The notes under the pieces: generated by a model
Databases searched by the model: none
What the model was told of the DNA's origin: nothing
Seen by the model: only the letters and a program-made list of their open reading frames with translations
From: an uncultured virus (IMG/VR IMGVR_UViG_3300032220_001739)
Taxonomy: Duplodnaviria > Heunggongvirae > Uroviricota > Caudoviricetes
Virus record (IMG/VR): IMGVR_UViG_3300032220_001739
DNA length: 57,495 nt
Direction: 5' to 3' (one strand)
In this document: piece after piece, positions 18,596 to 53,742 of the stretch
How positions within the stretch are numbered: the stretch's first letter is position 1
Layout of the letters: the number at the start of each line of letters is the position of its first letter
Made by a program: the position numbers and the translations under genes

Positions 18596-21500
18596 GTGAA
18601 GAAATTATTGATAATAACATCTCATCTGTCAACTGGTGGACTACCGCAAGTTGTGTGTAAGAAAATAGAACTTTTAAAAGACGAATTCGAGATAAAGTGC
18701 ATAGAATGGGATTTCCTATCTCCTGATTATGTGGTGCAAAGAAATCTTATAATTGAGTACCTAGGGGATTCCTTAGTCACTGCATCCGGTGATAAGAAGG
18801 ATTTTCTTTCCAATATATTGAACGAATACTCCCCTGATATTGTTTCTCTGGAGGAATTCCCTGAGCTTTTCATGGACGACGATTGTACATCGGTAATCTA
18901 TTCTGAGAACAGAACTTGGTCGATCACAGAAACAACCCACACTTCAACTTTCCCTACTGTTTCAAAAAGATGGCTTCCTGATAGATTCGTTTTCGTGTCA
19001 GAATTTACTAGAAGAAACTATGAGCACTTAGGAATACCTATCGATCTTATAGAATACCCTGTCGATAAAAAAGAAAGGGACCAGCACAAAGCTCAGTTGG
19101 ATCTTTCTCTAGATCCAGATTACAAACACGTTGTAATAGTTGGACTGTTTACTAGAAATAAAAATCAGGGATATGCATTCGATATAGCTAGGAAGCTAAG
19201 CGAAGAAAGGGTAAGATTTCACTTCTTAGGGAACCAAGCGGGAAATTTTGAGGAATATTGGGGACCTCTTATGCAGAACAAGCCTGACAATTGTGTGGTT
19301 TGGGGTGAAAGATCTGACGTTGATACATTTTTAAGGGCTGCCGATATTTTTCTATTCCCATCAATATTGGAATTAAATCCCCTTTGCGTGAAGGAAGCTA
19401 TGGAATATTCTCTTCCTATAATGCTCTTTCAACTTGACACATATTGCGGTAAATATAAAGGACTCGATAATGTGTACGACCTGACTGGTAACCCTTCTAA
19501 GGATGCATCTTTACTGATGACCATCCTCTCGAATAATCAATCTGAAGCGAAAAAACAGGTATTACCATTATTAAATGATCCTGCTATAAAAATGGTTCAC
19601 TTGCTTTTGAATCCTGATTACCAAGCAGATATACCCGATGAATCTTGGGGGTCTACAATCGATAAACAGAGAAGATCTATTGAGTATTTCAGAAAGATCT
19701 CGCATAAATTCTCTGCCCACTCGCAAATATTCTCGAATATAAATAGAACCGAGTTACCTGTTGAGTCGTGTGCTTCGCCCAGTAATCTGTATCATAATAA
19801 GGATCTTGAGGTTAAACCACACACTCTTTCATACGGCCACTATGGAGCATATGTTGCACATAAAAGAGGAATAACACAGGAGTTTACAGAAGAGTGTGAT
19901 TGCCTATTAGTTTTAGAAGCTGATGCTTATTCAAATCTAGATCCTATGGATTTCTATGAAAAGGTAATGGAAGCATATAGACTAGGGGTTGAAAGAAATG
20001 CTAGCATGGTTAGCTTAGCTGGTCCTTATTTTTTATCGGGTGAAGACTATTGGTCACAAATAGAAAATGTTGAAGGATATCCTGACTTTATAAAGGTACC
20101 TCATTTTCTGATGGGCACTGCTTATCTTGTATTCAAAAAAGAGAGAAATTCAATAATAGAAAAATTTGAAACGAGAGGCTGGCAATCCCCTGATATATGG
20201 TTAGCATGGAATCACAATAAGCAGGGTGACGTTTTCTGTTCAAGAGAATATTTTGCTTATCAGGTTTCTGGATACTCACTATTGGACTTTCACGAAAAAG
20301 ACGATCAGCCAGCTTACATCCCTGCTAAAAAAAAACATTTGAGCGAGAAGCAATCTAGATCTCGTATTGGTGTTTTAGTGGTGAATCTTAACAATCTTGG
20401 TTTTACAAAGAATTGCATAAATGATCTTTTAGAACAGGACATTGACTTTGACCTGTGCTTGATCGACCAAAATAGTTCAGAACCTGGAACTAGAGAATAT
20501 CTGGAGGAGATTGGTAAAATGCAGGATTCCCGTATTAAGAATATTGATATAATATTGAACAATAGCAACGAGCCACTGAATCATCTCTGGAATAATTTTG
20601 TAGAAAAATATGATAACGATTTTCTTTGTATATTAAACAATGACGTTAGGATATCTCCGAATTTTCTTTCTAGCGCTCTAGATGTATTTGAAAGAGAACC
20701 TGGTGTTGGTTTTGTTAACCATGCTACTAATAGCTCGAATCTTACAGAATGGTCATACGATCTGAATTATAGTATAATAGATTCACCATATAGGCAGGGG
20801 TGGGATTTTATATTCAGAAGAGAAGCATATAGTAGAATACCTGACACTTTAAAATTCTTCTATGGTGATGATTACATATATTCCAAGTTATATTCAGCAG
20901 GAATGAAAGGAGCTTATGTTTTAAATTCTCCTATGATTCATTACGAGAGAAGTACTACTGTGGAAAAAGGTGGGCAAAGAGATGCTTCTCCTGATGGTGA
21001 TTCTTTTCACAGATTGGATCTAGAATATAAGGGTCTAAGTTTTGTGGATGAATTTAGCAAATGGAAACCTGAGTTTAACCAAATTAGTGAAAAAAAATTA
21101 ATTTCGCAAGAACCAGAAATTAATTCTGATAAGATAGACCTTTCTATTCTAATATGTTCTCTTTTGGAAAGAAGAAACTCATTTCTCAACGATCTTCTTG
21201 ATAATCTCGAAAGACAAGTCGGTGACAGAAAAAATGTTGAAATTATAGTACTCTCAGATAACGCTAGGAGGAAAATAGGTGGAAAAAGAAACGATGCTAT
21301 TAGTATAGCAAGGGGTGAGTATATTTGTTTTATAGACGATGATGATAAAATATCTGAGGATTACGTGGACCTAATACTTAAGGAAATAAAAGAATGGAAA
21401 CCTGATGTTGTAGTTTTTGATGCAATAATCACTAATAATGGTCAAAATCCAAAGCTAGTTAAGTATGGAAGAGAATTTGACCATTGTGAAAAAGAAGAAG

Positions 21501-21694
21501 CTTATTACAGAAGGCCTAATCATTTAATGGTTCATAGAAAATCTAACATCAAAGAGTATTTCATGGATGTTAAAACAGGAGAAGATGACGAATGGGCTTC
21601 AAGAATGTTGGACAGAATAGTCACACAACAGAGAATAGAAAAGGTGCTCTATTTTTATGACTACAGAACTACAACTAAGAAATATTTTAGCTAA
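18596..21694 (+). CDS. multidomain glycosyltransferase (GT4/GT-B + GT25-like + two GT2/GT-A domains)
   Basis: GT4 motifs: HLSTGG, VGLFTRNKNQ, FLFPSILELNPLCVKEAM. Middle domain: GHYGAYVAH...LVLEADA. First GT2: LIDQNS...ILNND...YGDD. Second GT2: IGGKRN...ARGEYICFIDDDD...GED. GTG start. Confidence 0.85.
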   Translation: MKKLLIITSHLSTGGLPQVVCKKIELLKDEFEIKCIEWDFLSPDYVVQRNLIIEYLGDSLVTASGDKKDFLSNILNEYSPDIVSLEEFPELFMDDDCTSVIYSENRTWSITETTHTSTFPTVSKRWLPDRFVFVSEFTRRNYEHLGIPIDLIEYPVDKKERDQHKAQLDLSLDPDYKHVVIVGLFTRNKNQGYAFDIARKLSEERVRFHFLGNQAGNFEEYWGPLMQNKPDNCVVWGERSDVDTFLRAADIFLFPSILELNPLCVKEAMEYSLPIMLFQLDTYCGKYKGLDNVYDLTGNPSKDASLLMTILSNNQSEAKKQVLPLLNDPAIKMVHLLLNPDYQADIPDESWGSTIDKQRRSIEYFRKISHKFSAHSQIFSNINRTELPVESCASPSNLYHNKDLEVKPHTLSYGHYGAYVAHKRGITQEFTEECDCLLVLEADAYSNLDPMDFYEKVMEAYRLGVERNASMVSLAGPYFLSGEDYWSQIENVEGYPDFIKVPHFLMGTAYLVFKKERNSIIEKFETRGWQSPDIWLAWNHNKQGDVFCSREYFAYQVSGYSLLDFHEKDDQPAYIPAKKKHLSEKQSRSRIGVLVVNLNNLGFTKNCINDLLEQDIDFDLCLIDQNSSEPGTREYLEEIGKMQDSRIKNIDIILNNSNEPLNHLWNNFVEKYDNDFLCILNNDVRISPNFLSSALDVFEREPGVGFVNHATNSSNLTEWSYDLNYSIIDSPYRQGWDFIFRREAYSRIPDTLKFFYGDDYIYSKLYSAGMKGAYVLNSPMIHYERSTTVEKGGQRDASPDGDSFHRLDLEYKGLSFVDEFSKWKPEFNQISEKKLISQEPEINSDKIDLSILICSLLERRNSFLNDLLDNLERQVGDRKNVEIIVLSDNARRKIGGKRNDAISIARGEYICFIDDDDKISEDYVDLILKEIKEWKPDVVVFDAIITNNGQNPKLVKYGREFDHCEKEEAYYRRPNHLMVHRKSNIKEYFMDVKTGEDDEWASRMLDRIVTQQRIEKVLYFYDYRTTTKKYFS

Positions 21695-23283
21695 TGAATA
21701 GGTCAGAGATAATTAATTATCTTATATCAGTAAACGGGTATAAGTCTTTTCTAGAAATAGGTGTACAGGAGAAAATTAATTTTGGATCCATTCAGATTGA
21801 TAAAAAAGTATGCGTTGATCCTGATGCATCCAGAGGGGCTGATTTTATAATGACCTCGGATGAATTTTTCAAAAGAAACAGGGATAAATTCGACATTATT
21901 TTTGTAGACGGGCTACATCATGCTGATTTTTGTTATAGGGATGTAATAAATTCTCTAAAAATATTGAATATAGGTGGATGTGTAGTAGTGCATGATGTTA
22001 TTCCCTATACATACGAATCCCAATTGATACCGTTTGATAAATCCTACTCATCAGGATCCGATGCTTGGAACGGTGACGTATGGAAAGCATGGATAAGATT
22101 AAGGGAGGAGAGAAAAGATCTTTTGATGCATTGTGTTGATGACGACTGGGGGTGTGGAATCATTAGTTTTTCTAATAGTCCATGTAATATGGATATAGAT
22201 GTTTTCAATGGCGGGTATTATGTGTATGACAAAGATTTAATATTGGAAAATTCAAACGTTATCTCTGTAGATCAATTCAAAGAAATATACTCCGAAAGGA
22301 TTATGAAAGCTGTTGATTCTCAGAAGAAAAGATGCTTCATAACACACACGGATAAAAACTACATACCTGTAGCTATCAATTTGGTCAAATCGCTATCAAT
22401 ATTTTCAGAGATTAAGATAATTGTTTATTGTGTAAATTGTACATCTGAAGAAACTCAGCCACTTCTTGAATTTGAAAATGCAATTGTTAGGGACATAAGA
22501 ATAGAAGATCTTATAGAATCCCATAATATAAACTTTGGTGATAATGGTAATTTCTACGTCGAGAGAGCAAACAAGAGGACATATCAAATACTATGTGCTA
22601 AAGTAAAGGCTATGCAATCCGCTTTATCTGAAGGATGGACAGAGATTTGCTATCTCGATTCTGATTGTCTCGCAACACCTATAATTAACGAGATATTTAA
22701 CTGGGGAGATTCTATTACCGATTATCCTTTGGGCACAGAGGGAATACACAATTATATGTTGATAATAAAAGACGGTAAGCAAATAGGTAATCCCTTTGAG
22801 AATTCTTGGCCTGAACCGGATAATAAACTGTGTTTAGAATGGCCACTTATGGAAATGCTGGGTGTTGGAACTGGAGATAGAGGAACATATAGAACAACCG
22901 GGATTATGTTAATGAATAGTAATTGTATCAATTTTGTTAATCAATGGAACGATGTGTGTGATCTCATCGGAAGAAATTATAACGATCCTTCCAATATAGC
23001 TCCTTTTCACGAGGAGACTGTATTCAATGTCTTACTTTGGAAGAAGGGTAATAACGGTTTGCCTCTTTGCTACATTAATATAGCCGAAGGTGTTAAAACT
23101 GTTAAGGATTTCTATAGCGATTCGGTATCTGCTGGTACAAGATCTTGGGATGAAGAGGAACACGATAAGAGATTTTTTGCTATACCGAATGACAAAAGCC
23201 ACGTAAAAGTTCTTCATGGAGAGAAAAGGAAGGATGAGGCCAATTTAATAATAGATTTTTTATCCAGTAAGAATGAGAAATAG
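21694..23283 (+). CDS. class I SAM methyltransferase (Methyltransf_24-like) fused to a GT-A glycosyltransferase-like domain
   Basis: Methyltransferase motifs FLEIGV, VCVDP, FDIIFVDGLH and GGCVVVHD. The C-terminal half has a DxD motif (YLDSD), plus TTGIML and EETVFN. Confidence 0.8.
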   Translation: MNRSEIINYLISVNGYKSFLEIGVQEKINFGSIQIDKKVCVDPDASRGADFIMTSDEFFKRNRDKFDIIFVDGLHHADFCYRDVINSLKILNIGGCVVVHDVIPYTYESQLIPFDKSYSSGSDAWNGDVWKAWIRLREERKDLLMHCVDDDWGCGIISFSNSPCNMDIDVFNGGYYVYDKDLILENSNVISVDQFKEIYSERIMKAVDSQKKRCFITHTDKNYIPVAINLVKSLSIFSEIKIIVYCVNCTSEETQPLLEFENAIVRDIRIEDLIESHNINFGDNGNFYVERANKRTYQILCAKVKAMQSALSEGWTEICYLDSDCLATPIINEIFNWGDSITDYPLGTEGIHNYMLIIKDGKQIGNPFENSWPEPDNKLCLEWPLMEMLGVGTGDRGTYRTTGIMLMNSNCINFVNQWNDVCDLIGRNYNDPSNIAPFHEETVFNVLLWKKGNNGLPLCYINIAEGVKTVKDFYSDSVSAGTRSWDEEEHDKRFFAIPNDKSHVKVLHGEKRKDEANLIIDFLSSKNEK

Positions 23284-24016
23284 TGTTTCGCTTTTAGTAC
23301 ACACCTGTGATGCTTATATGAAATTCTGGGGTGGTATGTTATACACTCTTGATTTTTATTGGGACTATGACAGGATCCCTGTTTACTTTTCCTCTGAGGA
23401 TGTAAGCGTGGATTCGGTTAAATTTGATTGTAAGGGGATAGAATATCACATTGACGAAAGGATCAATACGATACTAACAGGTGCTGGGGAATTCTCTGAT
23501 AGATTCATCAAATCTCTAGAGAACATAGATACAAAATGGGTTATTTATATTCAGGAGGATATGTGGTTAAGAGGACATCTTAGTCCTGACCTAGTGGATC
23601 TTCTCATAGATGAGGCTGAAAAAGACGGTGCCGATGCGGTCAAAATACACGCAGCCCTTTATTATTATAATGGATATCGTTTAGAAAAAACTGGTAAGTA
23701 TATCCAGGATAAACAAATTTTGAAATATTCGCAGGGAGACAATTTTCTATTAACCCATAATGCTACGATATGGAATAGGGAATACCTATTAAAATACCAG
23801 TTAAAGGGTGAGGACCCCTGGTCTAATGAGATTAATGGAAGTTCTAGAATGTCAAGTGAGCCTCACAATCACCTACACTATAATATAAATTGGTATTGCC
23901 AGCCAGGATTGGCTGATAAAGGTGGGTACTCTAGTGAATTTCATGTTTATGCACATATAGTTGATCATATGAAATATGTGGATCTTAAATTTGGAAGAGA
24001 TGAAATTTTAGGATGA
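23273..24016 (+). CDS. putative GT-A fold glycosyltransferase
   Basis: LLVHTCDAY, FSDR and YIQEDMWL resemble phage GT-A-like proteins, and the gene sits inside the GT cluster. Confidence 0.55.
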   Translation: MRNSVSLLVHTCDAYMKFWGGMLYTLDFYWDYDRIPVYFSSEDVSVDSVKFDCKGIEYHIDERINTILTGAGEFSDRFIKSLENIDTKWVIYIQEDMWLRGHLSPDLVDLLIDEAEKDGADAVKIHAALYYYNGYRLEKTGKYIQDKQILKYSQGDNFLLTHNATIWNREYLLKYQLKGEDPWSNEINGSSRMSSEPHNHLHYNINWYCQPGLADKGGYSSEFHVYAHIVDHMKYVDLKFGRDEILG

Positions 24017-24041
24017 ACCCGAACTATTATTAGAAAAGAAT

Positions 24042-25220
24042 ATGGAAAGCAAATTAGTAAGAGAAAAATACATAGAATCCATAGGGAATGCTCTTTCTGG
24101 ACCTAGAATAGCTAGAAGATTCTCGAATAATTCTAAAAGCATTGCCTCTTTTACTCATAATTTTATAGATGGGCCTTTCTTTGAAATAAAAAATGGACAG
24201 GATGGTCAAAAATATAGAGTTGAGTTTAGGGATGGCAACGGACATCTACATTACACATCTGACCTTTCTAATAATATGTGGGCAAAGTCTTCTATAAAGT
24301 ATTACACAAAGTGGAATATAAAGGCAATAAGCGAGGGTAACTGCGTATATGATTACACTCTGGATTATACGAATAAAAGGGTGTACATATCTATAGAATC
24401 ATCCTCCATAGGGGATAATCTAGCCTGGATACCGTATATTGACGAGTTTAGAAAGAAGCACAATTGTCATGTAATAGTGTCAACTTTCCATAATTCTATA
24501 TTTGAAAGCAGTTATCAGGATCTTGAATTTATTAACCCTGGTGAAACTGCACATAATATAACTGGCCAATATACGATTGGGTGGTTTTATGATGAAACTA
24601 AAGAACCAGTTTTACCCAATACTGTGGCCCTTCAGAAAGCTGCAACCAATATATTGGGACTTGAATTTGAAGAGATTAGACCTAGACTTTCTTTTGATAG
24701 ATCCAATAGACCACATGACAAAAAATACGTAGTGATCTCAACTAGCTCCACGTCTGGTTGCAAGGAATGGGAACATGATAAATGGCAGGATCTTGTTAAT
24801 TTTTTGAAATCAAACGAATATGATGTTGCTGTGGTTCAAAAGGACGGGACTAGTCTAGACGGAGTAATAGATTGGACTGGACCTGATCCTTTAGAAAAAA
24901 GGATGAATCAGATATACCATGCTGATTTTTTCATAGGACTTGGTTCTGGTGTGAGCTGGCTTTCGTGGGCAGTTGGAACACATGTGGTTATGCTCGCTAA
25001 TTTTTCCGAGGATGGCCACGAGTTTACGGGTAACACCACACGTATAACAAATAAGAGTGTTTGTAATTCGTGCTGGAATAACAAGAATTTTAAATTTGAT
25101 AAGGGTGATTGGTACTGGTGCCCGATAAACAAAGGTACTGATAAACAATTTGAATGTCATAAGTCAATATCTGTAGATATGGTGACAAGTATAATTAAAG
25201 AAAAAGGATTAATAAAATGA
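24042..25220 (+). CDS. Aah/TibC-family (autotransporter O-heptosyltransferase-like) GT-B protein glycosyltransferase
   Basis: N-terminal beta domain, SSIGDNLAWIPY (catalytic Asp region), FFIGLGSGVSWLSWAVG, and the four-Cys iron finger VCNSCWN...WCP...FECHKSI that marks this family. Confidence 0.85.
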   Translation: MESKLVREKYIESIGNALSGPRIARRFSNNSKSIASFTHNFIDGPFFEIKNGQDGQKYRVEFRDGNGHLHYTSDLSNNMWAKSSIKYYTKWNIKAISEGNCVYDYTLDYTNKRVYISIESSSIGDNLAWIPYIDEFRKKHNCHVIVSTFHNSIFESSYQDLEFINPGETAHNITGQYTIGWFYDETKEPVLPNTVALQKAATNILGLEFEEIRPRLSFDRSNRPHDKKYVVISTSSTSGCKEWEHDKWQDLVNFLKSNEYDVAVVQKDGTSLDGVIDWTGPDPLEKRMNQIYHADFFIGLGSGVSWLSWAVGTHVVMLANFSEDGHEFTGNTTRITNKSVCNSCWNNKNFKFDKGDWYWCPINKGTDKQFECHKSISVDMVTSIIKEKGLIK

Positions 25221-34136: not shown

Positions 34137-34691
34137 ATGGCAGGCTTACCACATTTTTCAAACTCGATCGCATCGATGAATAACTTCGAACCGGTTTACT
34201 TAAACCAGTTTGAGGTAGTAATAAATCCACCAGCTGCTGTAGCTGGTGGACCTATTCTTTTACAGCACGTAACGAAGGTTTCTGGTATGGATGTAGATAA
34301 AAATCCAGCACCTGTAGCTCAGAAGTACAAGTTTGCAAAAAGAAACTACGCGGGAGCTAAACCAGATACTACTGGGATGACCGTTTCAATGAGCTTCACT
34401 GTGAACTTGAACGATGCTAATTCTATGTATGTTTTTAAAACACTAAGACAATGGACGGATCTTATCTATAATCCATTAACCGGAGCAATGGGTGTTAAAA
34501 ATGACTATGTAGGGTCAATAGTTATTTCAATCTTTAATAAAAACGGTGACGTTTTTAAAAGAGTAGTTTGTAAAGACTGCTTCCCACTTAGCGCAATTTC
34601 GCCAATGAACATAAGTTATGCAGCAGAAGAGGTTTGGAAGATAGACAATATGGAATGGGCAGTTGATTATTGGGAAGATCTATTCCTATAA
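34137..34691 (+). CDS. tail tube protein (gp19-like), paralogue 1
   Basis: Follows the sheath gene. NQFEV, LRQWTDLIYNPLTG, DCFP and DYWE are tube-family motifs. Confidence 0.8.
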   Translation: MAGLPHFSNSIASMNNFEPVYLNQFEVVINPPAAVAGGPILLQHVTKVSGMDVDKNPAPVAQKYKFAKRNYAGAKPDTTGMTVSMSFTVNLNDANSMYVFKTLRQWTDLIYNPLTGAMGVKNDYVGSIVISIFNKNGDVFKRVVCKDCFPLSAISPMNISYAAEEVWKIDNMEWAVDYWEDLFL

Positions 34692-34707: not shown

Positions 34708-35283
34708 ATGTCAGGATTACCACACTATACTAATTCTCAAGCTGCTATACAGCTTTACGAACCAGTTTATCTTAACCAGTTCGAGGTTATTATTAATACC
34801 CCAGCGGGTGTTCAGCAGTTACCTGGTTTAAATGGAGAATTGATACTGACCCAGCAGGTTAAATCTATATCCGGTATGACCGTTGATATACAGCCATCTG
34901 GACCAGTTGAGCAATTCTATAAGTTCGCTACTAGAAGATATGCGGGGGGTGAACCCTCCCAGACTGACATGGATTTAACCATGGAATTCGAGGTTAACCT
35001 TAACGAATCCAATTCGATGACTGTGTACAGGAGTCTTAGACAATGGTCGGATCTTATCTATAATCCATTGACTGGTGCTATGGGACTTAAGCGTGATTAT
35101 GTTGGATCTATGGTTATATCTATATTCAATAAGCAGGGTGATGTTTTTAGAAGAATAAGAATACCGGTTTGCTTTATAAGTACGCCAATACCAGCTTTGG
35201 AGTTAGATTATGACCAGGGAGCTAATATCTATAGTATTAGTATTTCTTGGAAATGCGATTACTGGGAAGATCTTTTCTTGTAA
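34708..35283 (+). CDS. tail tube-like protein (gp19/gp54-like), paralogue 2
   Basis: Collinear with the previous gene: GLPH, EPVYLNQFEV, LRQWSDLIYNPLTGAMG, SIFNKQGDVF, DYWEDLFL. Confidence 0.8.
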   Translation: MSGLPHYTNSQAAIQLYEPVYLNQFEVIINTPAGVQQLPGLNGELILTQQVKSISGMTVDIQPSGPVEQFYKFATRRYAGGEPSQTDMDLTMEFEVNLNESNSMTVYRSLRQWSDLIYNPLTGAMGLKRDYVGSMVISIFNKQGDVFRRIRIPVCFISTPIPALELDYDQGANIYSISISWKCDYWEDLFL

Positions 35284-43630: not shown

Positions 43631-43669
43631 GATATATAGACCAAAAAGTACTCTGAAAAAGATATATAG
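43631..43669 (+). promoter_or_regulatory. two tandem putative late promoters GATATATAG
   Basis: Copies at 43631 and 43661, upstream of the core-like gene. Confidence 0.6.
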
Positions 43670-43691: not shown

Positions 43692-46373
43692 ATGGACTTC
43701 ATTAACAAAGTACAAAAATTAAAAGAAACTACTACCTCACCGGAGGTTAAATCTCTATGTGAGAACTTCTTAAACGAGGCATTAAATAAAAATACCCTTA
43801 TAGAGGGACTTAAAAATTCTAATGATGCTGAGGTTTCTGGTTTCTTAAGAGAAAATACATCAAACATCTGGAACGATTTCAGAAATCAAGAAATGGAAGC
43901 TTCCAAAAGAGCAGCTTCTTCACTTTTGGAATCTTGGAGCCAGAATACATCTAAAGGAGATAATTCTGGAACTTGGATTACGCCTTCTAAAGAAAAATCA
44001 GGTGATAAAGAGATGAGTTCTTTAAACGAGTCCCTTTCCCACATAAAAGGTGATAAATCTGTTAATTCTTTTTTAACCTCTGAGTCCATTAAAAATCTAG
44101 GTGTTCTTGAGTCTGTTAAGTCTCTTCTTAGTTCACCTGTTGCCGATCACATGAAGGCTAAGATCATGTTAGAGAATTATAAAAATATCCTTGTTAATAA
44201 GAATATACCAGAGTACGCAGTTATTGAAAATTTTGTTAATGATTTAAGCCAATTGACATGGGATGCTAAATCTAAGGAGGTCTTTGAATCACTTCTAGGT
44301 AAAGCTAATACTTACAACAGAGAGATATACGTTTCTAAAGTGATAGATTCTATTAAGGGATCTGGATCTAGAGAATTTTATTCTGATCTTTATGAGTGTT
44401 TAAATGAGTGGATGGTATCTAAAGACAAGTCAAACGGTCTACTAGTTAATCAAATCTCTAAATATTCTTTCAATCCTGTAGTTAAAAACCTTATAAACTA
44501 TTTGAATCTTAACGAAAGCCGAAAAGATTCAAGCAGACTTTCTATCCCTGAGACTAATCAAGGTGAATCGTATGTAGAGAGAGCTTATTCCGCAATGGCA
44601 ACTAACGAGGATCAAAATTTCGCATTTGGTCTTGGTGGATTCATTTTCGAAGCAACAGAGAATGGCGTACAGAGAATAGACGCTAAGACTGCAGCTTCGT
44701 CATACGGTAGTACATTTGTTAATCTATTGGGAATTACTTCTAGACCTGATGTTAAGATAAATGAAGCGGGTGTTCATTTCTCAATCGGCAAGAAAGTAGT
44801 TAGTATAACAGAAGGAACGGAGAATAGTCCTAATGTATTTGTTGGTAGAAATAAATTAGCTTTCTCTAATGTTAACGAAATGGCTAAGATAATAGGATTG
44901 GAAGTATCCTCTTATATGGGATATAACGATATGTCTCTTGTAAAAGATATAGCTACCGTTTATGAAAATTACAATTCTTTTGTAGAGCTTGATTTTGCTA
45001 AGTCTATCGTATCTAGAATTTACGAGGGACTTTCTGTTAATCTGTTCAAATGGAACGATAAGATCTACCTTCAAAGAATAAATGAAGCTATGAGAGAGAA
45101 TTCAATATTCTCTGTTAATAGCATGCAAGCTGTTAAGTTAGTAAAAGACACATTAAGATATGATATTTCTGAGGGTCTAAGCGAATTCTTGGTTGGCGAA
45201 TTAAGAACTAAATCGGTTCTTCTAAATGACAGATCTAGTCTTCTTGAAAACATACAAAATGTTGAGGAACAGTTGGCCAAAGTTCAATCCTTGATAGAGC
45301 ATCCTAACTACTCCCATTCGTCTGAGCTTAAAGAAGCAGAGAAAATGCTAAAAAGGGAATTGAAGGTTTTAAGAAATAAATGGACTAGCATCAACGAGGA
45401 GATTGAGAAAATTGAAAATGTTGATTTAGATCCTAGTATGTACCTTATAGAGGATGCTAAATTTAATATAGGAGACTATGTTAAAATAAAAGAATCCGGA
45501 GAAACTGGTAAAATCGTTTCAATAGACGGTACTTCGGGAAGATATACAATTTTAACCGATGCAGGTAGAACAGAGGATCATAGAGTAAATGATATTCAAG
45601 ATTTAGAGGAAGCTATGTCAGATGCAGCAGAAAAAAATGCTGAAAAGACAAGTGATTTCGATAAAGACTATTTCGACAATGATCCTGCTAGTGATATAGA
45701 AAGTGACGAGTCTGAAGAAGAGGATGGCACTGAGGAAGTAAAGGAATCAAATACTACTTTATCTAAAGCACCTACAAGAACTAAAAATGTTAAAGAAAAG
45801 CAAGCACAGCCAACATATGCTAAAGCTCCTAGGTCTAAAGATCAGGAGAAACCAATGGCTCACGACCTAAAGAATCCTAAAGCTGCCCATTATGCGGAAG
45901 GAATTAAAGGACAAAAGCCAACAGATTTCGATGTTGCTGGATATGCTATTGGTTATAATATCGACGAAGCTAGCGAAGTAAAGGACGGATCACAAGGATT
46001 AGCAGAAGCTCCTAATTTCGGTAAAATCGAGAGAATGCATGATAAAAATGCTTTAGCTGGTATGGCACAGAAACACGGATACGCGAAAGCTCCTGGTGGG
46101 AATGACAAAATAGATCTTTCATTGGATCTACTACACGGATATAGAAAGGTACAGGAAGGGGTAAAAGGCGATGTTGCTAAAACGGATCCAAATCTTGCTG
46201 TAGCACCTTCTTTTAAAGGTGAGGAGAAAAGCATCATGGCTCATGACATTAAAAACGAAAAGGCTTTTAATTTCGCTACCGCACCAAGCAAGCACAGAGA
46301 TGCTATAGACTTTGGAATAAATGACGAGATCGGTTATAACGTAGACGAATCTGAATTGCAAAAAAAAAAGTAA
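43692..46373 (+). CDS. large prohead core/scaffold-like internal head protein
   Basis: 893 aa with many L/I-x-E sites (LNEA, LIEG, LLES, LNES) like T4 gp21 protease sites, a coiled coil, an SH3/KOW-like FNIGDYVKIKESGETGKIVSID segment, and C-terminal xAKAP repeats. Two late motifs lie upstream. The function is inferred. Confidence 0.45.
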   Translation: MDFINKVQKLKETTTSPEVKSLCENFLNEALNKNTLIEGLKNSNDAEVSGFLRENTSNIWNDFRNQEMEASKRAASSLLESWSQNTSKGDNSGTWITPSKEKSGDKEMSSLNESLSHIKGDKSVNSFLTSESIKNLGVLESVKSLLSSPVADHMKAKIMLENYKNILVNKNIPEYAVIENFVNDLSQLTWDAKSKEVFESLLGKANTYNREIYVSKVIDSIKGSGSREFYSDLYECLNEWMVSKDKSNGLLVNQISKYSFNPVVKNLINYLNLNESRKDSSRLSIPETNQGESYVERAYSAMATNEDQNFAFGLGGFIFEATENGVQRIDAKTAASSYGSTFVNLLGITSRPDVKINEAGVHFSIGKKVVSITEGTENSPNVFVGRNKLAFSNVNEMAKIIGLEVSSYMGYNDMSLVKDIATVYENYNSFVELDFAKSIVSRIYEGLSVNLFKWNDKIYLQRINEAMRENSIFSVNSMQAVKLVKDTLRYDISEGLSEFLVGELRTKSVLLNDRSSLLENIQNVEEQLAKVQSLIEHPNYSHSSELKEAEKMLKRELKVLRNKWTSINEEIEKIENVDLDPSMYLIEDAKFNIGDYVKIKESGETGKIVSIDGTSGRYTILTDAGRTEDHRVNDIQDLEEAMSDAAEKNAEKTSDFDKDYFDNDPASDIESDESEEEDGTEEVKESNTTLSKAPTRTKNVKEKQAQPTYAKAPRSKDQEKPMAHDLKNPKAAHYAEGIKGQKPTDFDVAGYAIGYNIDEASEVKDGSQGLAEAPNFGKIERMHDKNALAGMAQKHGYAKAPGGNDKIDLSLDLLHGYRKVQEGVKGDVAKTDPNLAVAPSFKGEEKSIMAHDIKNEKAFNFATAPSKHRDAIDFGINDEIGYNVDESELQKKK

Positions 46374-46579
46374 GTCGTAACTATTATTTTGCTCCTGAGA
46401 ACCCAGAACAAAATAAATCAGGTAAGCCTTTCGTAGATTCCCTAAAGGGAAAGTTCGCAAAGGCTCCGACTAAGCCGATAAACAAACACGTAGAGGACAG
46501 CGAGGAAGACGAGGCCGAAACAAACAAGTAAAAGCTTAATATAAAGATAAATTCTAAAATTTAAGCACAGAGATAAAAT

Positions 46580-46615
46580 ATCCCCTGTTTCTAATAAGAA
46601 TGGGGGATTTTTTTT
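46580..46615 (+). terminator. intrinsic terminator
   Basis: ATCCCCTG...TGGGGGAT imperfect hairpin followed by a T tract. Confidence 0.65.
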
Positions 46616-46636: not shown

Positions 46637-46996
46637 ATGGCAAAAGTTTATGTTAAAAACAGTGAGCTCCTTAGAGCTGTATCCGAATCTAAAGAGAAGG
46701 GTCAGCTAACAAGAGAGACGATCGATATGTTTACCCTCATGATAGAAGGTATTTCTAAGAAGATGGCTTACAAGGATCCTGACGATAAGGACGATTGTAT
46801 GGCTTTTGCCATGGAGGATCTTTGCAAATATTGGAATAGATTTGACCCTGCTAAATCTAATAATCCATTTGCCTACTTTACGCAGGTTGCAAAGAATGGA
46901 TTTGCTAAGGGATGGAAGAAATTACACCCACCAAAGAATCCCAAAACTATACCCTTCAGTTATATAACAGGAGAGGATAATAGTTACAACGTTTAA
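46637..46996 (+). CDS. gp55: T4 gp55-like late transcription sigma factor
   Basis: YVKNSELL and DDCMAFAMEDLCKYWNRFDPAKSNNPFAYFTQVAKNGF carry the gp55 signature FDP.KS.NPFAYFTQ. Confidence 0.85.
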   Translation: MAKVYVKNSELLRAVSESKEKGQLTRETIDMFTLMIEGISKKMAYKDPDDKDDCMAFAMEDLCKYWNRFDPAKSNNPFAYFTQVAKNGFAKGWKKLHPPKNPKTIPFSYITGEDNSYNV

Positions 46997-48127: not shown

Positions 48128-49702
48128 ATGGCTGGTTTTATAGATAACGAAAATGGTAATCCGGTATTTCAGAGGATTAGGGAATCTGTTAAGTCGATCT
48201 CTAAGTTCGGTATGAAATACGAGGACATGGTGATTAAGAACTCCATGGCTGTTGGTGCTACTGAAGCTGCTTTCATTAATCAGAACAAAACAAACGTTCC
48301 TGATGAGAATATGATGTATAGTCTTGCGAAGCAAGATACTATGGTCAAACAGTATATCTCTTATTTCGACAAGGATTATAAGGGAAAGAGGGATTATCTT
48401 AGGAAATTCTCCCTTAACCCAGAGATAGAAGGAGTTCTTGATATTGTTTGTGACGAATCCATAAACTACGACCCCTCTAATTATTACGCATATCCCGATT
48501 TTCTAGATATAACTACTCTAAAAGAAAAAACAAGAGAAAAGGTTTATGATGTTTTTAGAAAAATATATGACATCTGGGGATTTAGCGATGATATAACAGC
48601 ATGGCAATTCTTTAGACAATTCATGGTGGATGGATTCCTTGCATTTGAAATAATCTGGGACAATAGGGGGAAAGAGATAATTGGATTTAAAGAATTGGAC
48701 GCTACTTCTTTAATACCTAGCGTAGAAAAACAACCAGACGGAAGACATGTCAACGTTTGGATACAATTTCCGAATGACCCTAAAAAGACAAGAATGCTAT
48801 ATGACTCACAGATCATATACATGTCTTATGCTAAGGGAAATTCAGTTTCCAGATTAAGCTACGTTGAGAGATTAATTAGACCTTATAATACCCTAAGAAT
48901 TATAGAATACACTAGGGTAATTTGGTCAGTGATGAATGCTTCATTCAAGCTTAAAATGACCGTTCCTGTTGGATCAAGATCACCTCAGAAAGCTATGCAG
49001 ACCTTGGGTGAACTTATGAGTATCTATAAGGAGGATATTAGCTTGAGCGATGATACTGGTGAATTGCTAGTTGACGGAGCGCCTAAGATACAATTCTATA
49101 AGAATTATCTGATACCACAAGGCCAAAACGGTCAACCTACAATTGAGCCCTTGACAATGGAGGGACCAAACTTAAATGATCCTGCCCCTCTTGCATATTT
49201 CTACGATAGATTCATAGAGGAATCTAAAATACCTGCTACAAGATTTAAGGGATTAGATGGATCTTCTAGTGCAACATATTCCAACACTGCGGATGGACTG
49301 GACAAGGAAGAGGTAAGATTTAGTAAGTTCATAAGTAGATTGAGAACCAATTTTCAGGATATCATTATAAAGCCACTTTGGTTACAAATATGTAAAGACA
49401 ATCCGGAATTAGAAAAAGATCTAGTTTTTAAGAGCCAACTTGGACTTAAGTACATCAGTGAGAACCCTTTTAGGGTAAACCAGGAGATGGAATTGATCAC
49501 TAAGAGAAAAGAAAGCGTAGATTCATTGGCTGCTATAATGGAAGACGGGGATAAACCTTATTTTTCACAGACTTACTTAATTGAGAATTTTCTCGGACTT
49601 ACACCTGCAGACATTAAAGCTAACAAGATAGCAAAAGAAAAGAATGCCAAGAAGAAAGAGAAGGAAGGCGGAGAGGAAGAAGCACCAGAAGTTACTTTAT
49701 AA
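48128..49702 (+). CDS. gp20: portal protein (T4 gp20-like), paralogue 1
   Basis: PEIEGVLDIVCDESI, FRQFMVDG, SYVERLIRPYNTLRIIE, KIPATRF and EEVRFSKFISRLRTNF are gp20 motifs. Confidence 0.9.
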   Translation: MAGFIDNENGNPVFQRIRESVKSISKFGMKYEDMVIKNSMAVGATEAAFINQNKTNVPDENMMYSLAKQDTMVKQYISYFDKDYKGKRDYLRKFSLNPEIEGVLDIVCDESINYDPSNYYAYPDFLDITTLKEKTREKVYDVFRKIYDIWGFSDDITAWQFFRQFMVDGFLAFEIIWDNRGKEIIGFKELDATSLIPSVEKQPDGRHVNVWIQFPNDPKKTRMLYDSQIIYMSYAKGNSVSRLSYVERLIRPYNTLRIIEYTRVIWSVMNASFKLKMTVPVGSRSPQKAMQTLGELMSIYKEDISLSDDTGELLVDGAPKIQFYKNYLIPQGQNGQPTIEPLTMEGPNLNDPAPLAYFYDRFIEESKIPATRFKGLDGSSSATYSNTADGLDKEEVRFSKFISRLRTNFQDIIIKPLWLQICKDNPELEKDLVFKSQLGLKYISENPFRVNQEMELITKRKESVDSLAAIMEDGDKPYFSQTYLIENFLGLTPADIKANKIAKEKNAKKKEKEGGEEEAPEVTL

Positions 49703-49716
49703 ATAAAAAAATAAAA

Positions 49717-51366
49717 ATGGCAGGATTTATAGATCCCATACAACCAAATAGTGCATTCGGAACGATACTGAGAAGTCTTTCTCAGATATCTAGGTTTGGT
49801 ATGAAGTACGAGGATATGGTTGTTAGGAATTCACAGGCCATAGGTAAGACCGAATCAGAATTCTTCAACGAGCAAGGAACCGGATTTACTGAAAGCGATG
49901 CTTTCTATTGGACAGTTTCTCATTCCGATACAAAAGTAAGAAAGTACATAGCTTATTTTGATAAGGATTACATAGACAAAAGAAACTTTCTTAGGAAGTT
50001 TTCGCTAAACGGTGAGATTGAGTTTATACTCGATACGGTAACTGATGAAGCTGTGGTTTACGACGAGAAGAATTATTTTGCATATCCCGAGATCAAGAAT
50101 TTGGACGTAAGTGATAAGGTGAAAGATAAACTGATGGAGAATTTTTACCGGATCTATCATCTTTTTAATTTTCAGGAAAGTATATTAGCTTGGCAGGTAT
50201 TTAGGCAGCTCCTAATTGATGGGTTTCTAGCTTATGAGATAATCTACGATAGCAGAGGCAAGCAAGTTATTGGATTTAAAGAACTCGATGCAACATCACT
50301 TCAGCCTATGGTTGAAAAAGTTGGCGAAAATGATTTTCAGCAGGTTTGGGTTCAGTATCCAAAGAATCCCCAGATGACAAGAAAGCTTAAGAATGAGCAG
50401 GTTATCTACATATCATATGCTAAAGGTAATTCAATTTCCAGGGTAAGTTATGTTGAGAGATTAGTTAGATCCTATAACATCCTGAAAATAATGGAGAACA
50501 GTAGGATTATATGGAATGTCATGAACGCTTCATATAGATTGAAGTTTGTTATACCTATAGGTACACAGTCACCGCAAAAGGCCATGCAAACGCTAGGGCA
50601 AATAATGTCTTATCATAAAGAGGAGATATCTATAAACGACAATTCAGGGGAATTGACTGTTAACGGAAGACCAAAAATTCAGTTCTATAAAAACTATCTT
50701 TTCCCTGAGAAGGATGGTGTTTCTCCTACCATAGAAACACTAAATGCAGCTGGACCTGATTTTAATATCATGGACAACGTGCTTTACTTCTTCAATAAAC
50801 TAAAGCAAGATTCTAAAATACCGTATGCGAGATTTGCTTATAGAGGTGGAACACCTGCAAACAACCAAATTAGCATTGATTCTTTAGAAAGAGATGAGAT
50901 AAGGTTCGAGAAGTTTCTTTCCAGATTGAGATCGATTTATCAGGAAATCATAGTTAAGCCTCTTTATATACAAATGTGTCTTGATTATCCTGAGCTTGTA
51001 AAAGATAGAAGCTTTAAAACTAATCTTGGAATTAATTTCGTAAGGGAAAGCGAATTCAACGATCTGGTTGAACTTGCTAATCTAGTTAAAAGAGGGGATT
51101 TTATAAAATCTCTTGCTGACATGAAAGTTAAAGTTGGTGAAGAAGAGCAGCCTTATTTTGATAAAGATTTCCTTGTTCAGAGATTTTTAGGTCTAACACC
51201 GGAGCAGATAGAGGGCAATGCTTCATACAAAGAGCTTGAAGCTAAATCTGCTAAAAAGGAAAGCTCTACTAGCGGAGCTGAGGGCGAGGCAGCTCCAGCG
51301 GAAGAAGAAGCGGCAGCTCCAGCGGAAGAAGAAGCGGCAGCACCCGCTGAGGAAAAGACTGCATAG
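49717..51366 (+). CDS. gp20: portal protein (T4 gp20-like), paralogue 2
   Basis: EIEFILDTVTDEAVV, FRQLLIDG, SYVERLVRSYNILKIME, KIPYARF and RDEIRFEKFLSRLR. Confidence 0.9.
   Translation: MAGFIDPIQPNSAFGTILRSLSQISRFGMKYEDMVVRNSQAIGKTESEFFNEQGTGFTESDAFYWTVSHSDTKVRKYIAYFDKDYIDKRNFLRKFSLNGEIEFILDTVTDEAVVYDEKNYFAYPEIKNLDVSDKVKDKLMENFYRIYHLFNFQESILAWQVFRQLLIDGFLAYEIIYDSRGKQVIGFKELDATSLQPMVEKVGENDFQQVWVQYPKNPQMTRKLKNEQVIYISYAKGNSISRVSYVERLVRSYNILKIMENSRIIWNVMNASYRLKFVIPIGTQSPQKAMQTLGQIMSYHKEEISINDNSGELTVNGRPKIQFYKNYLFPEKDGVSPTIETLNAAGPDFNIMDNVLYFFNKLKQDSKIPYARFAYRGGTPANNQISIDSLERDEIRFEKFLSRLRSIYQEIIVKPLYIQMCLDYPELVKDRSFKTNLGINFVRESEFNDLVELANLVKRGDFIKSLADMKVKVGEEEQPYFDKDFLVQRFLGLTPEQIEGNASYKELEAKSAKKESSTSGAEGEAAPAEEEAAAPAEEEAAAPAEEKTA
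51289..51336 (+). repeat. 24-bp perfect tandem repeat x2 (AAPAEEEA) plus a degenerate third copy in the portal-2 tail
   Basis: gcagctccagcggaagaagaagcg occurs twice, followed by gcagcacccgctgaggaa. Confidence 0.9.
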
Positions 51367-52857: not shown

Positions 52858-53742
52858 ATGGTTGTATACAGAGTAACAAATCTAATAAACGGAAAAATTT
52901 ACATCGGAAAAGATTCTAGGAACGATCCAAATTATTATGGCTCTGGTATTCTTATAAAAAAATCAATTATAAAATATGGGATTTCCAATTTTATTAAAGA
53001 AATTCTTGGTGTGTACACTTCGGAAGATGAGCTTAACGAGGGGGAAATATACTGGATTAAAGAGCTAGATTCTAGAAATCCTATGATAGGGTATAATATT
53101 TCAGAAGGCGGTGAAGGATTTAATTTAAAAAATCTGCCAAATTACGATGAAATTAAAGAGAAAATGGATAAATCTCCCCATCTTAGAAAAAGCTATATTG
53201 AAAAGTATGGGCAGGAAAGGTCTAAAGAGATAATTAAAAAAAAATCGGAAACTTATAAAAGGAATTCAAAAACATCTGGGGATCTTAACTCTTCTAAAAG
53301 ACTAGAAGTTAGAGAAAAAATATCAAGAGGTGTTAAAAAATATATTGAAGAAAATCCTAACGTAATTGAGGAATTTAAGAACAGACAGAAAAAAATTATT
53401 GATAATAGAAGGGGAAAAAATTTTGCAGAGATATTCGGAGAACGTATGGCAGAGAGAATAAGAATAAAAATTTCGGAAAGTAAAATGGGTGATTCCAATC
53501 CATCTAAAAGGAGTGACGTAAGGGAAAAAATAAAGGAGGGTGTCAGAAGACATATAGAAAATATGTCATTGATTCCTGCGTGGTCTTTTTTAGAAATTGA
53601 ATCAGGTAAGAAACATATCATAGGGAGGGGTAAATTAAAGGAATTTTGCGAATCACACGGATTGTCACTCAGTAAAATAAAGTACAGGCTATCGAAATCG
53701 TCTTTCTTTACTTTTTCTGGCTGGATGATAGAAAAATTATAA
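52858..53742 (+). CDS. free-standing GIY-YIG homing endonuclease (Seg-like) with NUMOD-type repeats
   Basis: VYRVTNLINGKIYIGK...YYGSG...KYG..NF.KEIL...E..WI...GYNISEGGEG, plus repeated GD.N.SKR..VREKI. Visibly more A-rich than its neighbours. Confidence 0.9.
   Translation: MVVYRVTNLINGKIYIGKDSRNDPNYYGSGILIKKSIIKYGISNFIKEILGVYTSEDELNEGEIYWIKELDSRNPMIGYNISEGGEGFNLKNLPNYDEIKEKMDKSPHLRKSYIEKYGQERSKEIIKKKSETYKRNSKTSGDLNSSKRLEVREKISRGVKKYIEENPNVIEEFKNRQKKIIDNRRGKNFAEIFGERMAERIRIKISESKMGDSNPSKRSDVREKIKEGVRRHIENMSLIPAWSFLEIESGKKHIIGRGKLKEFCESHGLSLSKIKYRLSKSSFFTFSGWMIEKL

What the first reader, a model, noticed from the sequence alone, without database searches (positions are those of the whole stretch)
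46359..46531. Candidate -1 frameshift (A AAA AAG) extending the core-like protein by 53 aa
Seen: the 893 aa ORF ends CAA AAA AAA AAG TAA (A10G). The -1 frame continues without any ATG as VSRNYYFAPENPEQNKSGKPFVDSLKGKFAKAPTKPINKHVEDSEEDEAETNK to TAA at 46529-46531. This fills the otherwise empty gap before the terminator and continues the protein's own xAKAP repeat (LSKAP, YAKAP, YAKAP, then FAKAP). Known: A AAA AAG is the efficient dnaX/IS-type slippery heptamer, and runs of 9 or more A also permit transcriptional slippage. Inference: two isoforms of a head protein are made at a fixed ratio.
Basis: partly seen in the sequence, partly recalled or inferred. Interest (0 to 1): 0.7.

Follow-up and report, generated by a model that had tools for sequence, protein, structure and literature searches.

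The report
Conserved poly-A frame switch, jumbo phage
A run of ten A's at the end of a late gene of an uncultured freshwater jumbo phage is a real, deeply conserved frame-switch signal that most likely yields a short protein and a form 53 residues longer, probably through RNA-polymerase slippage rather than the ribosomal frameshift first proposed.

Summary
Confirmed; not an assembly error. The 893-aa ORF ends C-A10-G-TAA, and a start-less -1 frame of 53 codons follows. Of 47 homologue representatives (<90% identity), 44 carry the extension, and all 44 have a run of 9 or 10 A's before it: 42 need -1, one is in frame, one is a separate gene. The extension is under purifying selection. Two distant subfamilies use exactly A9 in front of unrelated extensions.

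The dnaX/IS-type reading is weaker than proposed. A_AAA_AAG occurs in only 17 of 42, and no conserved stem-loop or SD was found. What is conserved is run length, which fits transcriptional slippage (0.55) better than -1 ribosomal frameshifting (0.3). No RNA reads were tested.

The protein is an uncharacterised late product rich in gp21-type cleavage motifs, but it is not gp22. A cleavage motif always sits just before the run, so the long form may release a ~60-residue peptide. This is a known trick in an undescribed family. This scan noted the family before on other DNA.

The parts
43631..43668 (+). Two GATATATA boxes (43631-43638, 43661-43668): putative late promoter
   Evidence: GATATATA within 80 nt upstream in 44 of 45 representatives, 41 of them 29-34 nt before the start (shuffled upstream 0.10); GATA[AT]ATA-type boxes also precede the neck, sheath, one tube and both portal genes of the window, not ligase, clamp loader, dCMP deaminase or the sigma genes. 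Promoter function inferred.
43692..46373 (+). 893-aa ORF (short isoform, 99.8 kDa), uncharacterised late protein
   Evidence: no PHROG family, only a sub-threshold SH3-type Pfam hit (PF20297, E 0.0018, residues 593-621)
43992..45641 (+). Folded part (residues 101-650): helical region, mixed beta/alpha region, coiled-coil hairpin, SH3-like domain
   Evidence: mean pLDDT 92.6; fold matches to uncharacterised jumbo-phage proteins incl. Tenacibaculum phage PTm1 A0A5S9HXP5
45738..46370 (+). Low-confidence, probably disordered repeat tail (xAP repeats separated by [ILV]xE motifs); length varies between relatives
   Evidence: (pLDDT <50 over most of 654-893)
46341..46352 (+). VDES: last putative prohead-protease site ([ILVM]xE) before the run
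   Evidence: an [ILVM]xE lies within 8 residues before the run in 43 of 43 representatives vs 0.26 background; T4 gp21 cuts after L/I-X-E (PMC9026906, passage). Cleavage inferred.
46360..46369 (+). A10 recoding site
   Evidence: A9 or A10 in all 174 locus records with the extension
46371..46373 (+). 0-frame stop TAA, overlapping the first two codons of the extension
46370..46531 (+). -1 frame extension, 53 codons: conserved RN[YF]YFAP...Q...F...KAP block, then an acidic tail (long isoform 946 aa, 105.8 kDa)
   Evidence: (8 residues invariant in 39 of 39 with free third positions)
46580..46615 (+). Intrinsic-terminator-like hairpin and T run after the extension
46637..46996 (+). Context: gp55-like late sigma gene; the family keeps this position directly upstream of it
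   Evidence: phrog_234, E 2.7e-15; synteny

Best explanation
Programmed transcriptional slippage. The gene is transcribed late (inferred from the GATATATA box). On the A10 tract RNA polymerase sometimes adds an untemplated A; such mRNAs are read by ordinary decoding straight into the former -1 frame and give a 946-aa form, while unslipped mRNA gives the 893-aa form ending KKK; other slips end within a few codons. Shown: sequence layout, conservation of run length, coding selection on the extension. Inferred: that slippage is transcriptional, that the long form is the minority, and that both forms are needed. Function (inferred, weaker, about 0.5): a prohead-internal precursor cut by the gp21-type protease at [ILVM]xE sites; the last site sits just before the run and the conserved block of the extension has none, so the long form would release a protease-resistant peptide of about 60 residues in sub-stoichiometric amount, or carry it as a docking tail on a minority of molecules.
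For: Run is 9 (147) or 10 (27) in all 174 locus records with the extension, never 8 or fewer, never 11 or more (records include repeat fetches of one contig; 44 of 44 representatives at <90%, 19 of 19 at <70%). A search by the extension motif alone, blind to the run, gave A9/A10 in 54 of 56 loci; the other 2 lack the gene. The codon before KK changes (Leu, Val, Gln, Glu, Ser, Gly) but always ends in A; elsewhere in these genes only 4 of 22 xKK[KN] stretches are coded as A9. A heptamer needs only 6-7 A's; nine is the length at which bacterial RNA polymerase slips efficiently in vivo (PMC5009743, passage; PMC1088944, Background). The run keeps length 9 when its codon phase changes (L037), when the extension is in frame (L058, L092, L103, L113) and when it is a separate gene (L061), across synonymous divergence pS 0.5-0.75 between these states; in all 5 of those in-frame or separate cases the -1 frame meets a stop within 1-3 codons of the run, the inverted polarity seen in tssM1 vs tssM3 (PMC4256274). 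Two distant subfamilies use exactly A9 with unrelated extensions: 22 of 22 loci inside the SH3-like domain, 34 of 37 analysed loci at the end of the repeats. No consensus RNA structure in 20 sequences; SD-like words 15 of 42 vs 0.33 background; no ATG/GTG/TTG in the -1 frame in 42 of 42.
Against: No RNA reads were examined, so mRNA heterogeneity is not shown. Every out-of-frame case needs the same shift (-1 or +1 A); no lineage needing the other frame was found, which ribosomal -1 frameshifting explains equally. A_AAA_AAA is present in the 0 frame in every case, and that motif and A_AAA_AAC are used by IS elements (PMC4066793, passages). In the two distant subfamilies the run is followed by G in 30 of 31 distinct junctions, i.e. 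the best bacterial heptamer. 7 of 43 downstream segments fold at z < -2, more than chance would give. Two other A9 runs lie in ORFs of the window with no sign of use. Three distant relatives (L135, L137, L138), three loci of subfamily B, a Lak phage and LR756500 lack run and extension, so the device is not universal. Virion location and cleavage are not shown.
Confidence: 0.55

Rival explanations
1. Programmed -1 ribosomal frameshifting by tandem tRNA-Lys slippage on A_AAA_AAA or A_AAA_AAN, helped by the adjacent stop codon and overlapping heptamers rather than by an RNA structure. Same two products.
For: X_XXY_YYZ present in the 0 frame in all cases; shift always -1; AAG in 17 of 42 main-family representatives and 30 of 31 distinct junctions of the distant subfamilies; some tailed-phage frameshifts lack stimulators (PMC5009743, passage); stop directly after the AAN codon in 40 of 42.
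Against: Does not explain why the run is never shorter than 9; AAC/AAU (23 of 42) are poor in E. coli (PMC4066793: A_AAA_AAC low efficiency; best heptamers about 0.3% without stimulator); no conserved stem-loop (window z -0.84) or SD; synonymous sites right after the site vary freely; L037 has the stop 12 codons later.
Confidence: 0.3
2. Ribosome sliding on the lysine-coding poly-A run, alone or together with polymerase slippage, produces the out-of-frame product.
For: E. coli ribosomes slide on iterated AAA codons and emerge out of frame (PMC4363877, passages); this too depends on run length and needs no stimulator; a stop next to the run could slow decoding.
Against: The same paper reports sliding as slow relative to normal elongation and termination (section heading); most relatives have only two full AAA codons plus AAN.
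Confidence: 0.1
3. DNA-level phase variation: the tract changes length during replication and only rare +1 genomes make the long form.
For: Single records with the shifted run exist in both directions: P0318 (continuous, 1 of 15 listed in its cluster) and P0007 (other frame, singleton).
Against: The out-of-frame state is fixed in nearly all records of each lineage (15 of 15 listed in the window's cluster); strong purifying selection on the extension is hard to keep if it is read only in rare mutants; the shorter-run variant of the window's lineage was found in 0 viral contigs.
Confidence: 0.03
4. The extension is a separate small gene with its own non-canonical start, or the break is an assembly error.
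For: In L061 the extension is a separate ORF with ATG; 10 of 42 have a rare start-like codon (ATT/ATC/ATA/CTG) in the -1 frame, ATT in the window.
Against: 32 of 42 have no common or rare start codon; the -1 frame is open for only 5-16 codons before the motif; independent contigs and 37%-identical relatives share the break.
Confidence: 0.02

Closest known systems
Thermus thermophilus dnaX (tau/gamma by transcriptional slippage on nine A's; PMC1088944 Background, PMC5009743 passage)
   Same: Nine-A run in the sense strand near the 3' end, two products with different C-termini, nearby out-of-frame stop, no stimulator needed.
   Different: Cellular gene; slippage gives the shorter product (as in the in-frame relatives here, opposite to the window); mechanism proven there, inferred here.
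tssM1 of Citrobacter rodentium (A11) and tssM3 of Yersinia pseudotuberculosis (A9) (PMC4256274: abstract, Results part 1, section on tssM3)
   Same: Poly-A tract giving two length variants of a structural component; both polarities in one family (slip to long vs slip to short).
   Different: Bacterial secretion-system membrane protein; extension is a large folded domain; ratio measured (15-25%).
Recoded C-terminal extensions of phage head proteins: T7/T3 gene 10, Lactobacillus phage A2 major head, Listeria phages A118/A500/PSA (PMC5009743 passages)
   Same: Phage late gene, frame switch near the stop, minority product with a C-terminal extension.
   Different: Those are major capsid or tail proteins recoded by ribosomal frameshifting, often adding an Ig-like domain; this protein is not the capsid protein and adds a short repeat-like peptide after a strict A9-10 run.
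E. coli dnaX and IS1/IS3-family -1 frameshift signals (PMC4066793 passages)
   Same: A_AAA_AAG in the 0 frame in the window.
   Different: AAG not conserved in the main family; no conserved 3' structure or SD-like element found.
T4 prohead core and internal proteins (gp22, gp67, gp68, IPs with capsid-targeting sequence; PMC9026906 passages and section 2.6)
   Same: Many L/I-X-E-type motifs, late expression signal, acidic disordered tail; L061's stand-alone extension has a short leader ending in INE, like a cleavable propeptide.
   Different: No sequence or fold homology to gp22 detected; different genome position; relatives already have a protease-scaffold fusion; no recoding in the T4 genes that I know of (recalled).

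Membership tests
Programmed transcriptional slippage on A9/T9 (T. thermophilus dnaX, tssM type) | Homopolymer of at least 9 A or T in the coding region | tested here: met
   A10 in the window; A9/A10 in 174 of 174 records with the extension
Programmed transcriptional slippage on A9/T9 (T. thermophilus dnaX, tssM type) | Run conserved at nucleotide level beyond amino-acid need, and regardless of reading frame | tested here: met
   Background 4 of 22 xKK[KN] coded as A9; run kept in shifted phase, in-frame and split-gene lineages at pS 0.5-0.75
Programmed transcriptional slippage on A9/T9 (T. thermophilus dnaX, tssM type) | mRNA population heterogeneous in run length | not testable with these tools
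   All 24 listed runs are kept as contigs; the 5 RNA or RNA-guessed runs hold 0.05-0.10 of the words; only DNA runs were laid
dnaX/IS-type -1 ribosomal frameshift | X_XXY_YYZ heptamer in the 0 frame before the stop | tested here: met
   A_AAA_AAG and A_AAA_AAA in the window; A_AAA_AAA in all 42 -1 representatives
dnaX/IS-type -1 ribosomal frameshift | Efficient A_AAA_AAG motif conserved | tested here: not met
   17 of 42 in the main family; but 30 of 31 distinct junctions in the two distant subfamilies
dnaX/IS-type -1 ribosomal frameshift | Conserved 3' stem-loop or pseudoknot 5-8 nt downstream | tested here: not met
   RNAalifold: 0 pairs in 20 sequences; single folds mean z -0.7, 7 of 43 below -2; pseudoknots not modelled
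dnaX/IS-type -1 ribosomal frameshift | SD-like sequence shortly upstream | tested here: not met
   15 of 42 vs 0.33 background
Recoded major capsid proteins (T7/T3 gene 10, A2 head) | Recoded gene is the major capsid protein | tested here: not met
   No capsid family hit for the 893-aa protein; a Gp23 gene lies elsewhere in 3 of 3 complete relatives
Lambda G/GT-type tail assembly chaperone frameshift | Gene lies between major tail and tape-measure genes | tested here: not met
   Gene lies directly upstream of the gp55-like sigma, head-closure, gp2 and portal genes
T4 prohead core/scaffold (gp22, gp67, gp68) | Homology to gp22-type scaffold | tested here: inconclusive
   No PHROG or Pfam hit and no informative PDB match; a long protease ORF (642-647 aa) with a scaffold-like repeat tail exists separately, which argues against orthology
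T4 prohead core/scaffold (gp22, gp67, gp68) | Multiple gp21-type L/I-X-E sites and late expression | tested here: met
   21 [ILVMF]xE[SAG] motifs, 2.35 per 100 aa, highest of 43 window ORFs scored; 13-15 in the protease ORFs and LNES-A at 41-45 of the capsid protein; late-type box in 44 of 45. Motifs only.
T4 prohead core/scaffold (gp22, gp67, gp68) | Present in proheads and cleaved on maturation | not testable with these tools
   Needs particle proteomics

The most novel reading that the evidence does not exclude
A family of jumbo myophages, probably of Bacteroidota, uses RNA-polymerase slippage on a portable nine-A module as a stoichiometry dial for head assembly. The module has been placed at different points of one late gene in three subfamilies, in front of unrelated cargo (a repeat-like peptide, a coiled hairpin, the second half of an SH3-like domain plus further domains). 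It works in either polarity. Together with a flanking prohead-protease site it turns one gene into a polyprotein that releases a minor internal peptide, which one lineage instead expresses as its own gene with a capsid-targeting-like leader.
Probability: 0.3. Interest if true: 0.75.

Novelty: new variant of a known kind. Interest (0 to 1): 0.55.

Why it matters
Standard annotation misses the long form in a widespread family of freshwater jumbo phages (complete relatives of 290-430 kb), so public protein records are systematically truncated (110 of 120 homologues end in KKx). The phage structural-protein frame switches described in the review passages I read are ribosomal; a conserved, strict A9-10 signal would be a case of productive transcriptional slippage in a dsDNA phage late gene, which my searches did not find in print. 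The natural variants (out of frame, in frame, split gene, absent; AAG/AAC/AAU) form a ready-made series for testing mechanism, ratio and the role of the peptide.

Tried and rejected
Homopolymer assembly error: rejected. Independent start for the extension: rejected for 32 of 42. Conserved RNA stimulator: none; Rfam gave only 5 sub-threshold matches. The idea that P0130 (ends KKSK) marks a lineage needing the +1 frame: loci of that subgroup (L253-L255) have no run and no extension, so rejected; P0132 DNA was not obtained. P0007 as a real shorter-run lineage: singleton, 0 matches in viral contigs. Naming the protein: PHROGs, Pfam, ESM Atlas (one unnamed cluster at 0.81), PDB by sequence, Foldseek PDB and VIA wide search gave nothing beyond a generic coiled-coil hairpin; domains were not folded singly, so a known fold is not excluded. 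bS21-phage membership: no bS21 in 4 records. AAGTAAG resembling a spliceosomal donor: dismissed, C and T variants break it. No complex prediction was run, as no binding claim is made. No whole genome is held for the window. Rows dropped before counts: L143, L144, L181, L197 (short or chimeric contigs, chance pattern hits; L143 had run and extension, L144 neither); 34 of 71 loci (29 main family, 3 run off the contig, 2 without anchor); 12 loci (11 run off, 1 no anchor).
Full report
Observation. The sequence is as reported. The 893-aa ORF at 43692-46373 ends with C46359, ten A's (46360-46369), G and TAA. The -1 frame is closed by a TGA four codons before the run, has no ATG, GTG or TTG, and is open for 53 codons to TAA 46529-46531. 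A terminator-like hairpin follows. The run is the longest A run on the + strand of the window and the only run of nine or more in the nearest held relative, G001, 62 kb. The heptamer AAAAAAG alone is at chance level (24 vs 21.9).

Setting. The window is part of a T4-like jumbo myophage: terminase, sheath, two tubes, neck, gp55-like sigma, head closure, gp2 and two portals. Complete relatives are 290-430 kb and encode Gp23 and a gp21-type protease. Runs that hold the stretch are freshwater, lake and estuary metagenomes where labelled. Distant homologues occur in Prevotella Lak phages and, by fold, in Tenacibaculum phage PTm1, so a Bacteroidota host is likely but inferred.

Not an assembly error. 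Contigs of runs X2, X5 and X6 cross the run without an indel; X1 may be the source and is not counted (contigs only). Of 120 homologous proteins down to about 40% identity, 110 end in KK[KNSA], 3 carry the extension in frame and 7 end otherwise. All 15 listed members of the window's 90% cluster end in KKx. Single records with a shifted run do exist: P0318 (continuous, 1 of 15 listed in its cluster) and P0007 (singleton).

Conservation of the signal. Among 177 locus records with the gene anchor and a stop (these include the window and repeat fetches of the same contigs; four records were left out, see Tried and rejected), 158 have the extension in the -1 frame, 10 in frame, 6 as a separate ORF and 3 lack it. 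The run is A9 in 147 and A10 in 27, never another length. After thinning to <90% identity the count is 42 / 1 / 1 / 3 of 47; at <70% it is 19 of 21 with -1 and 2 without. A search with the extension motif alone, blind to the run, found A9 or A10 in 54 of 56 loci; the other two lack the gene. The codon before the lysines changes among six amino acids but always ends in A. Elsewhere in the same genes AAA makes up 73% of lysine codons and only 4 of 22 xKK[KN] stretches are coded as nine A's.

The extension is coding. In 39 representatives eight residues are invariant while third positions vary (mean entropy 0.81, 0.60, 1.40 bits by codon position). All-pairs pS is 0.73 against pN 0.29. dN/dS is 0.055 for the 63 pairs chosen for pN below 0.15, a choice that biases it downward. 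Both other frames hold stops in 42 of 42. No common start codon precedes it in 42 of 42, and no rare one in 32. Its profile matches internal repeats of family members (best E 1.3e-5, 19.2 bits; reversed control at most 1.7 bits; only 7.7 bits on the window's own protein), so it is a diverged repeat unit followed by an acidic tail.

Natural variants. In one clade the arrangement varies while the run stays: -1 with A10 then GCT (L045), -1 with the run in another codon phase and the stop 12 codons later (L037), in frame (L058, L092, L103, L113), and a separate 74-aa ORF with its own ATG and a short leader ending in INE (L061). Synonymous sites between these states are at pS 0.5-0.75, so the run is not simply recent. 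In all five in-frame or separate cases the -1 frame reaches a stop within three codons of the run; this is suggestive only, since stops are frequent in that frame. Two distant subfamilies use exactly A9 with different cargo. In one, 22 of 22 loci (13 distinct junctions) have the run at the start of the SH3-like domain and a -1 frame of 159-222 codons. In the other, 34 of 37 analysed loci (18 of 20 junctions) have it after the repeats, before an 82-87-codon frame; the three loci without the run also lack the extension. L135, L137, L138, Lak-C1 and LR756500 have neither.

Mechanism. For transcriptional slippage: the invariant feature is a length of 9-10, the length at which bacterial RNA polymerase slips efficiently in vivo and which T. 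thermophilus dnaX uses (PMC5009743, passages; PMC1088944, Background section). A heptamer would need six or seven A's. The 0-frame motif is A_AAA_AAG in 17, AAC in 18, AAU in 5 and neither in 2 of 42, and A_AAA_AAC is weak in E. coli (PMC4066793, passages). RNAalifold finds no pair in 20 sequences, the window's downstream and upstream segments fold at z -0.84 and -0.01, and SD-like words are at background. Both polarities in one family parallel tssM1 and tssM3 (PMC4256274, abstract, Results part 1 and tssM3 section). Against: no RNA was examined; every out-of-frame case is -1; A_AAA_AAA is always present and is used by IS elements; G follows the run in 30 of 31 junctions of the distant subfamilies; 7 of 43 downstream segments fold at z below -2; and ribosome sliding on AAA runs (PMC4363877, passages) also depends on length. 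I put real recoding at about 0.95: slippage 0.55, ribosomal -1 0.3, sliding or mixed 0.1.

The protein. Residues 101-650 fold confidently (pLDDT 92.6) into helical, beta/alpha, coiled-coil and SH3-like parts; the rest is low-confidence. No library names it, and PDB fold searches return only generic hairpins. A GATATATA box lies upstream in 44 of 45 representatives, and related boxes precede the neck, sheath, tube and portal genes but not the replication genes checked, so it is probably late. It has the highest density of [ILVMF]xE[SAG] motifs among 43 window ORFs (21), like the protease-scaffold ORFs of relatives (13-15) and the capsid N-terminus (LNES-A at 41-45). T4 gp21 cuts after L/I-X-E and fragments core proteins (PMC9026906, passages and section 2.6). 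An [ILVM]xE lies within eight residues before the run in 43 of 43 representatives (background 0.26), and none lies in the first 34 residues of the extension in 44 of 44. I infer a prohead-internal precursor whose long form releases a peptide of about 60 residues; L061, which encodes that peptide separately behind a propeptide-like leader, fits this. It is an inference from motifs; the protein is not shown to be in the head and is not a recognisable gp22.

Prior art and novelty. Recoded extensions of phage capsid and tail proteins and slippage on A9 in bacterial genes are known. I found no description of this family or signal in six searches: (56 papers, 25 listed; 5; 0; 1, unrelated; 102, 10 listed; 174, 20 listed), seen as listings and abstract starts. 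Term look-ups for frameshift and slippage gave none in PMC9723584, PMC12363816, PMC7824862 and PMC11165621 (the last returned nothing for any term, so it is a weak check). No supplements were read, and subscription papers are not covered. Earlier notes of this scan describe the same family on other DNA; they are unchecked AI notes and add no support. Verdict: real, new variant of a known kind, interest 0.55.

Noticed in passing
window 48128-49702 and 49717-51366: Two tandem T4-like portal paralogues (524 and 549 aa), both strong phrog_213 hits.
   Followed up: no
window 34137-34691 and 34708-35283: Two tandem tail-tube paralogues with near-identical ends.
   Followed up: no
window 20327-20335 and 53236-53244: Two other A9 runs inside ORFs (glycosyltransferase, homing endonuclease); the nearest held relative G001 has no such runs, so probably incidental, but they would slip if the mechanism is transcriptional.
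   Followed up: partly
L061 5808-6032: The extension is a separate 74-aa ORF with its own ATG and a short leader ending in INE, still holding A9; similar short leaders (...SFxEF...) start ORFs next to the capsid gene in L225/L226 and after the extension in L069.
   Followed up: partly
P0105, P0114, P0115 (residues about 95-190): The in-frame lineage has a peptidoglycan-binding domain (PF01471) inserted near the N-terminus of the protein.
   Followed up: no
L203-L224: Distant subfamily: exactly A9 splits the SH3-like domain; the -1 frame adds 159-222 codons that complete it and add further domains.
   Followed up: yes
L234-L270, L291, L293, L296: Another subfamily: A9 at the end of the repeats leads to an unrelated helical-looking extension of 82-87 codons; L253-L255 lack both.
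   Followed up: yes
L201 3257-8320 (Lak-C1): Lak homologue is one open frame of 1687 codons under table 15 with a very long acidic region and no A8+ run.
   Followed up: partly
window 43631-43668, and upstream of 25545, 30755, 34137, 42453, 48128, 49717: GATA[AT]ATA late-promoter-like box, a variant of the T4 late box TATAAATA (recalled).
   Followed up: partly
L049/L133; L070/L121: L049's extension runs to 75 codons past the usual stop; in L070/L121 the main ORF is only 473 aa, so it may be broken upstream.
   Followed up: no
G002, G003, G004 (L228-L230): A second, weaker Gp23-family match (open frames of about 300 aa) far from the capsid gene, possibly a vertex protein.
   Followed up: no
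window 18596-25220: Cluster with a glycosyltransferase and a methyltransferase-like gene between the tail-fibre and neck genes.
   Followed up: no
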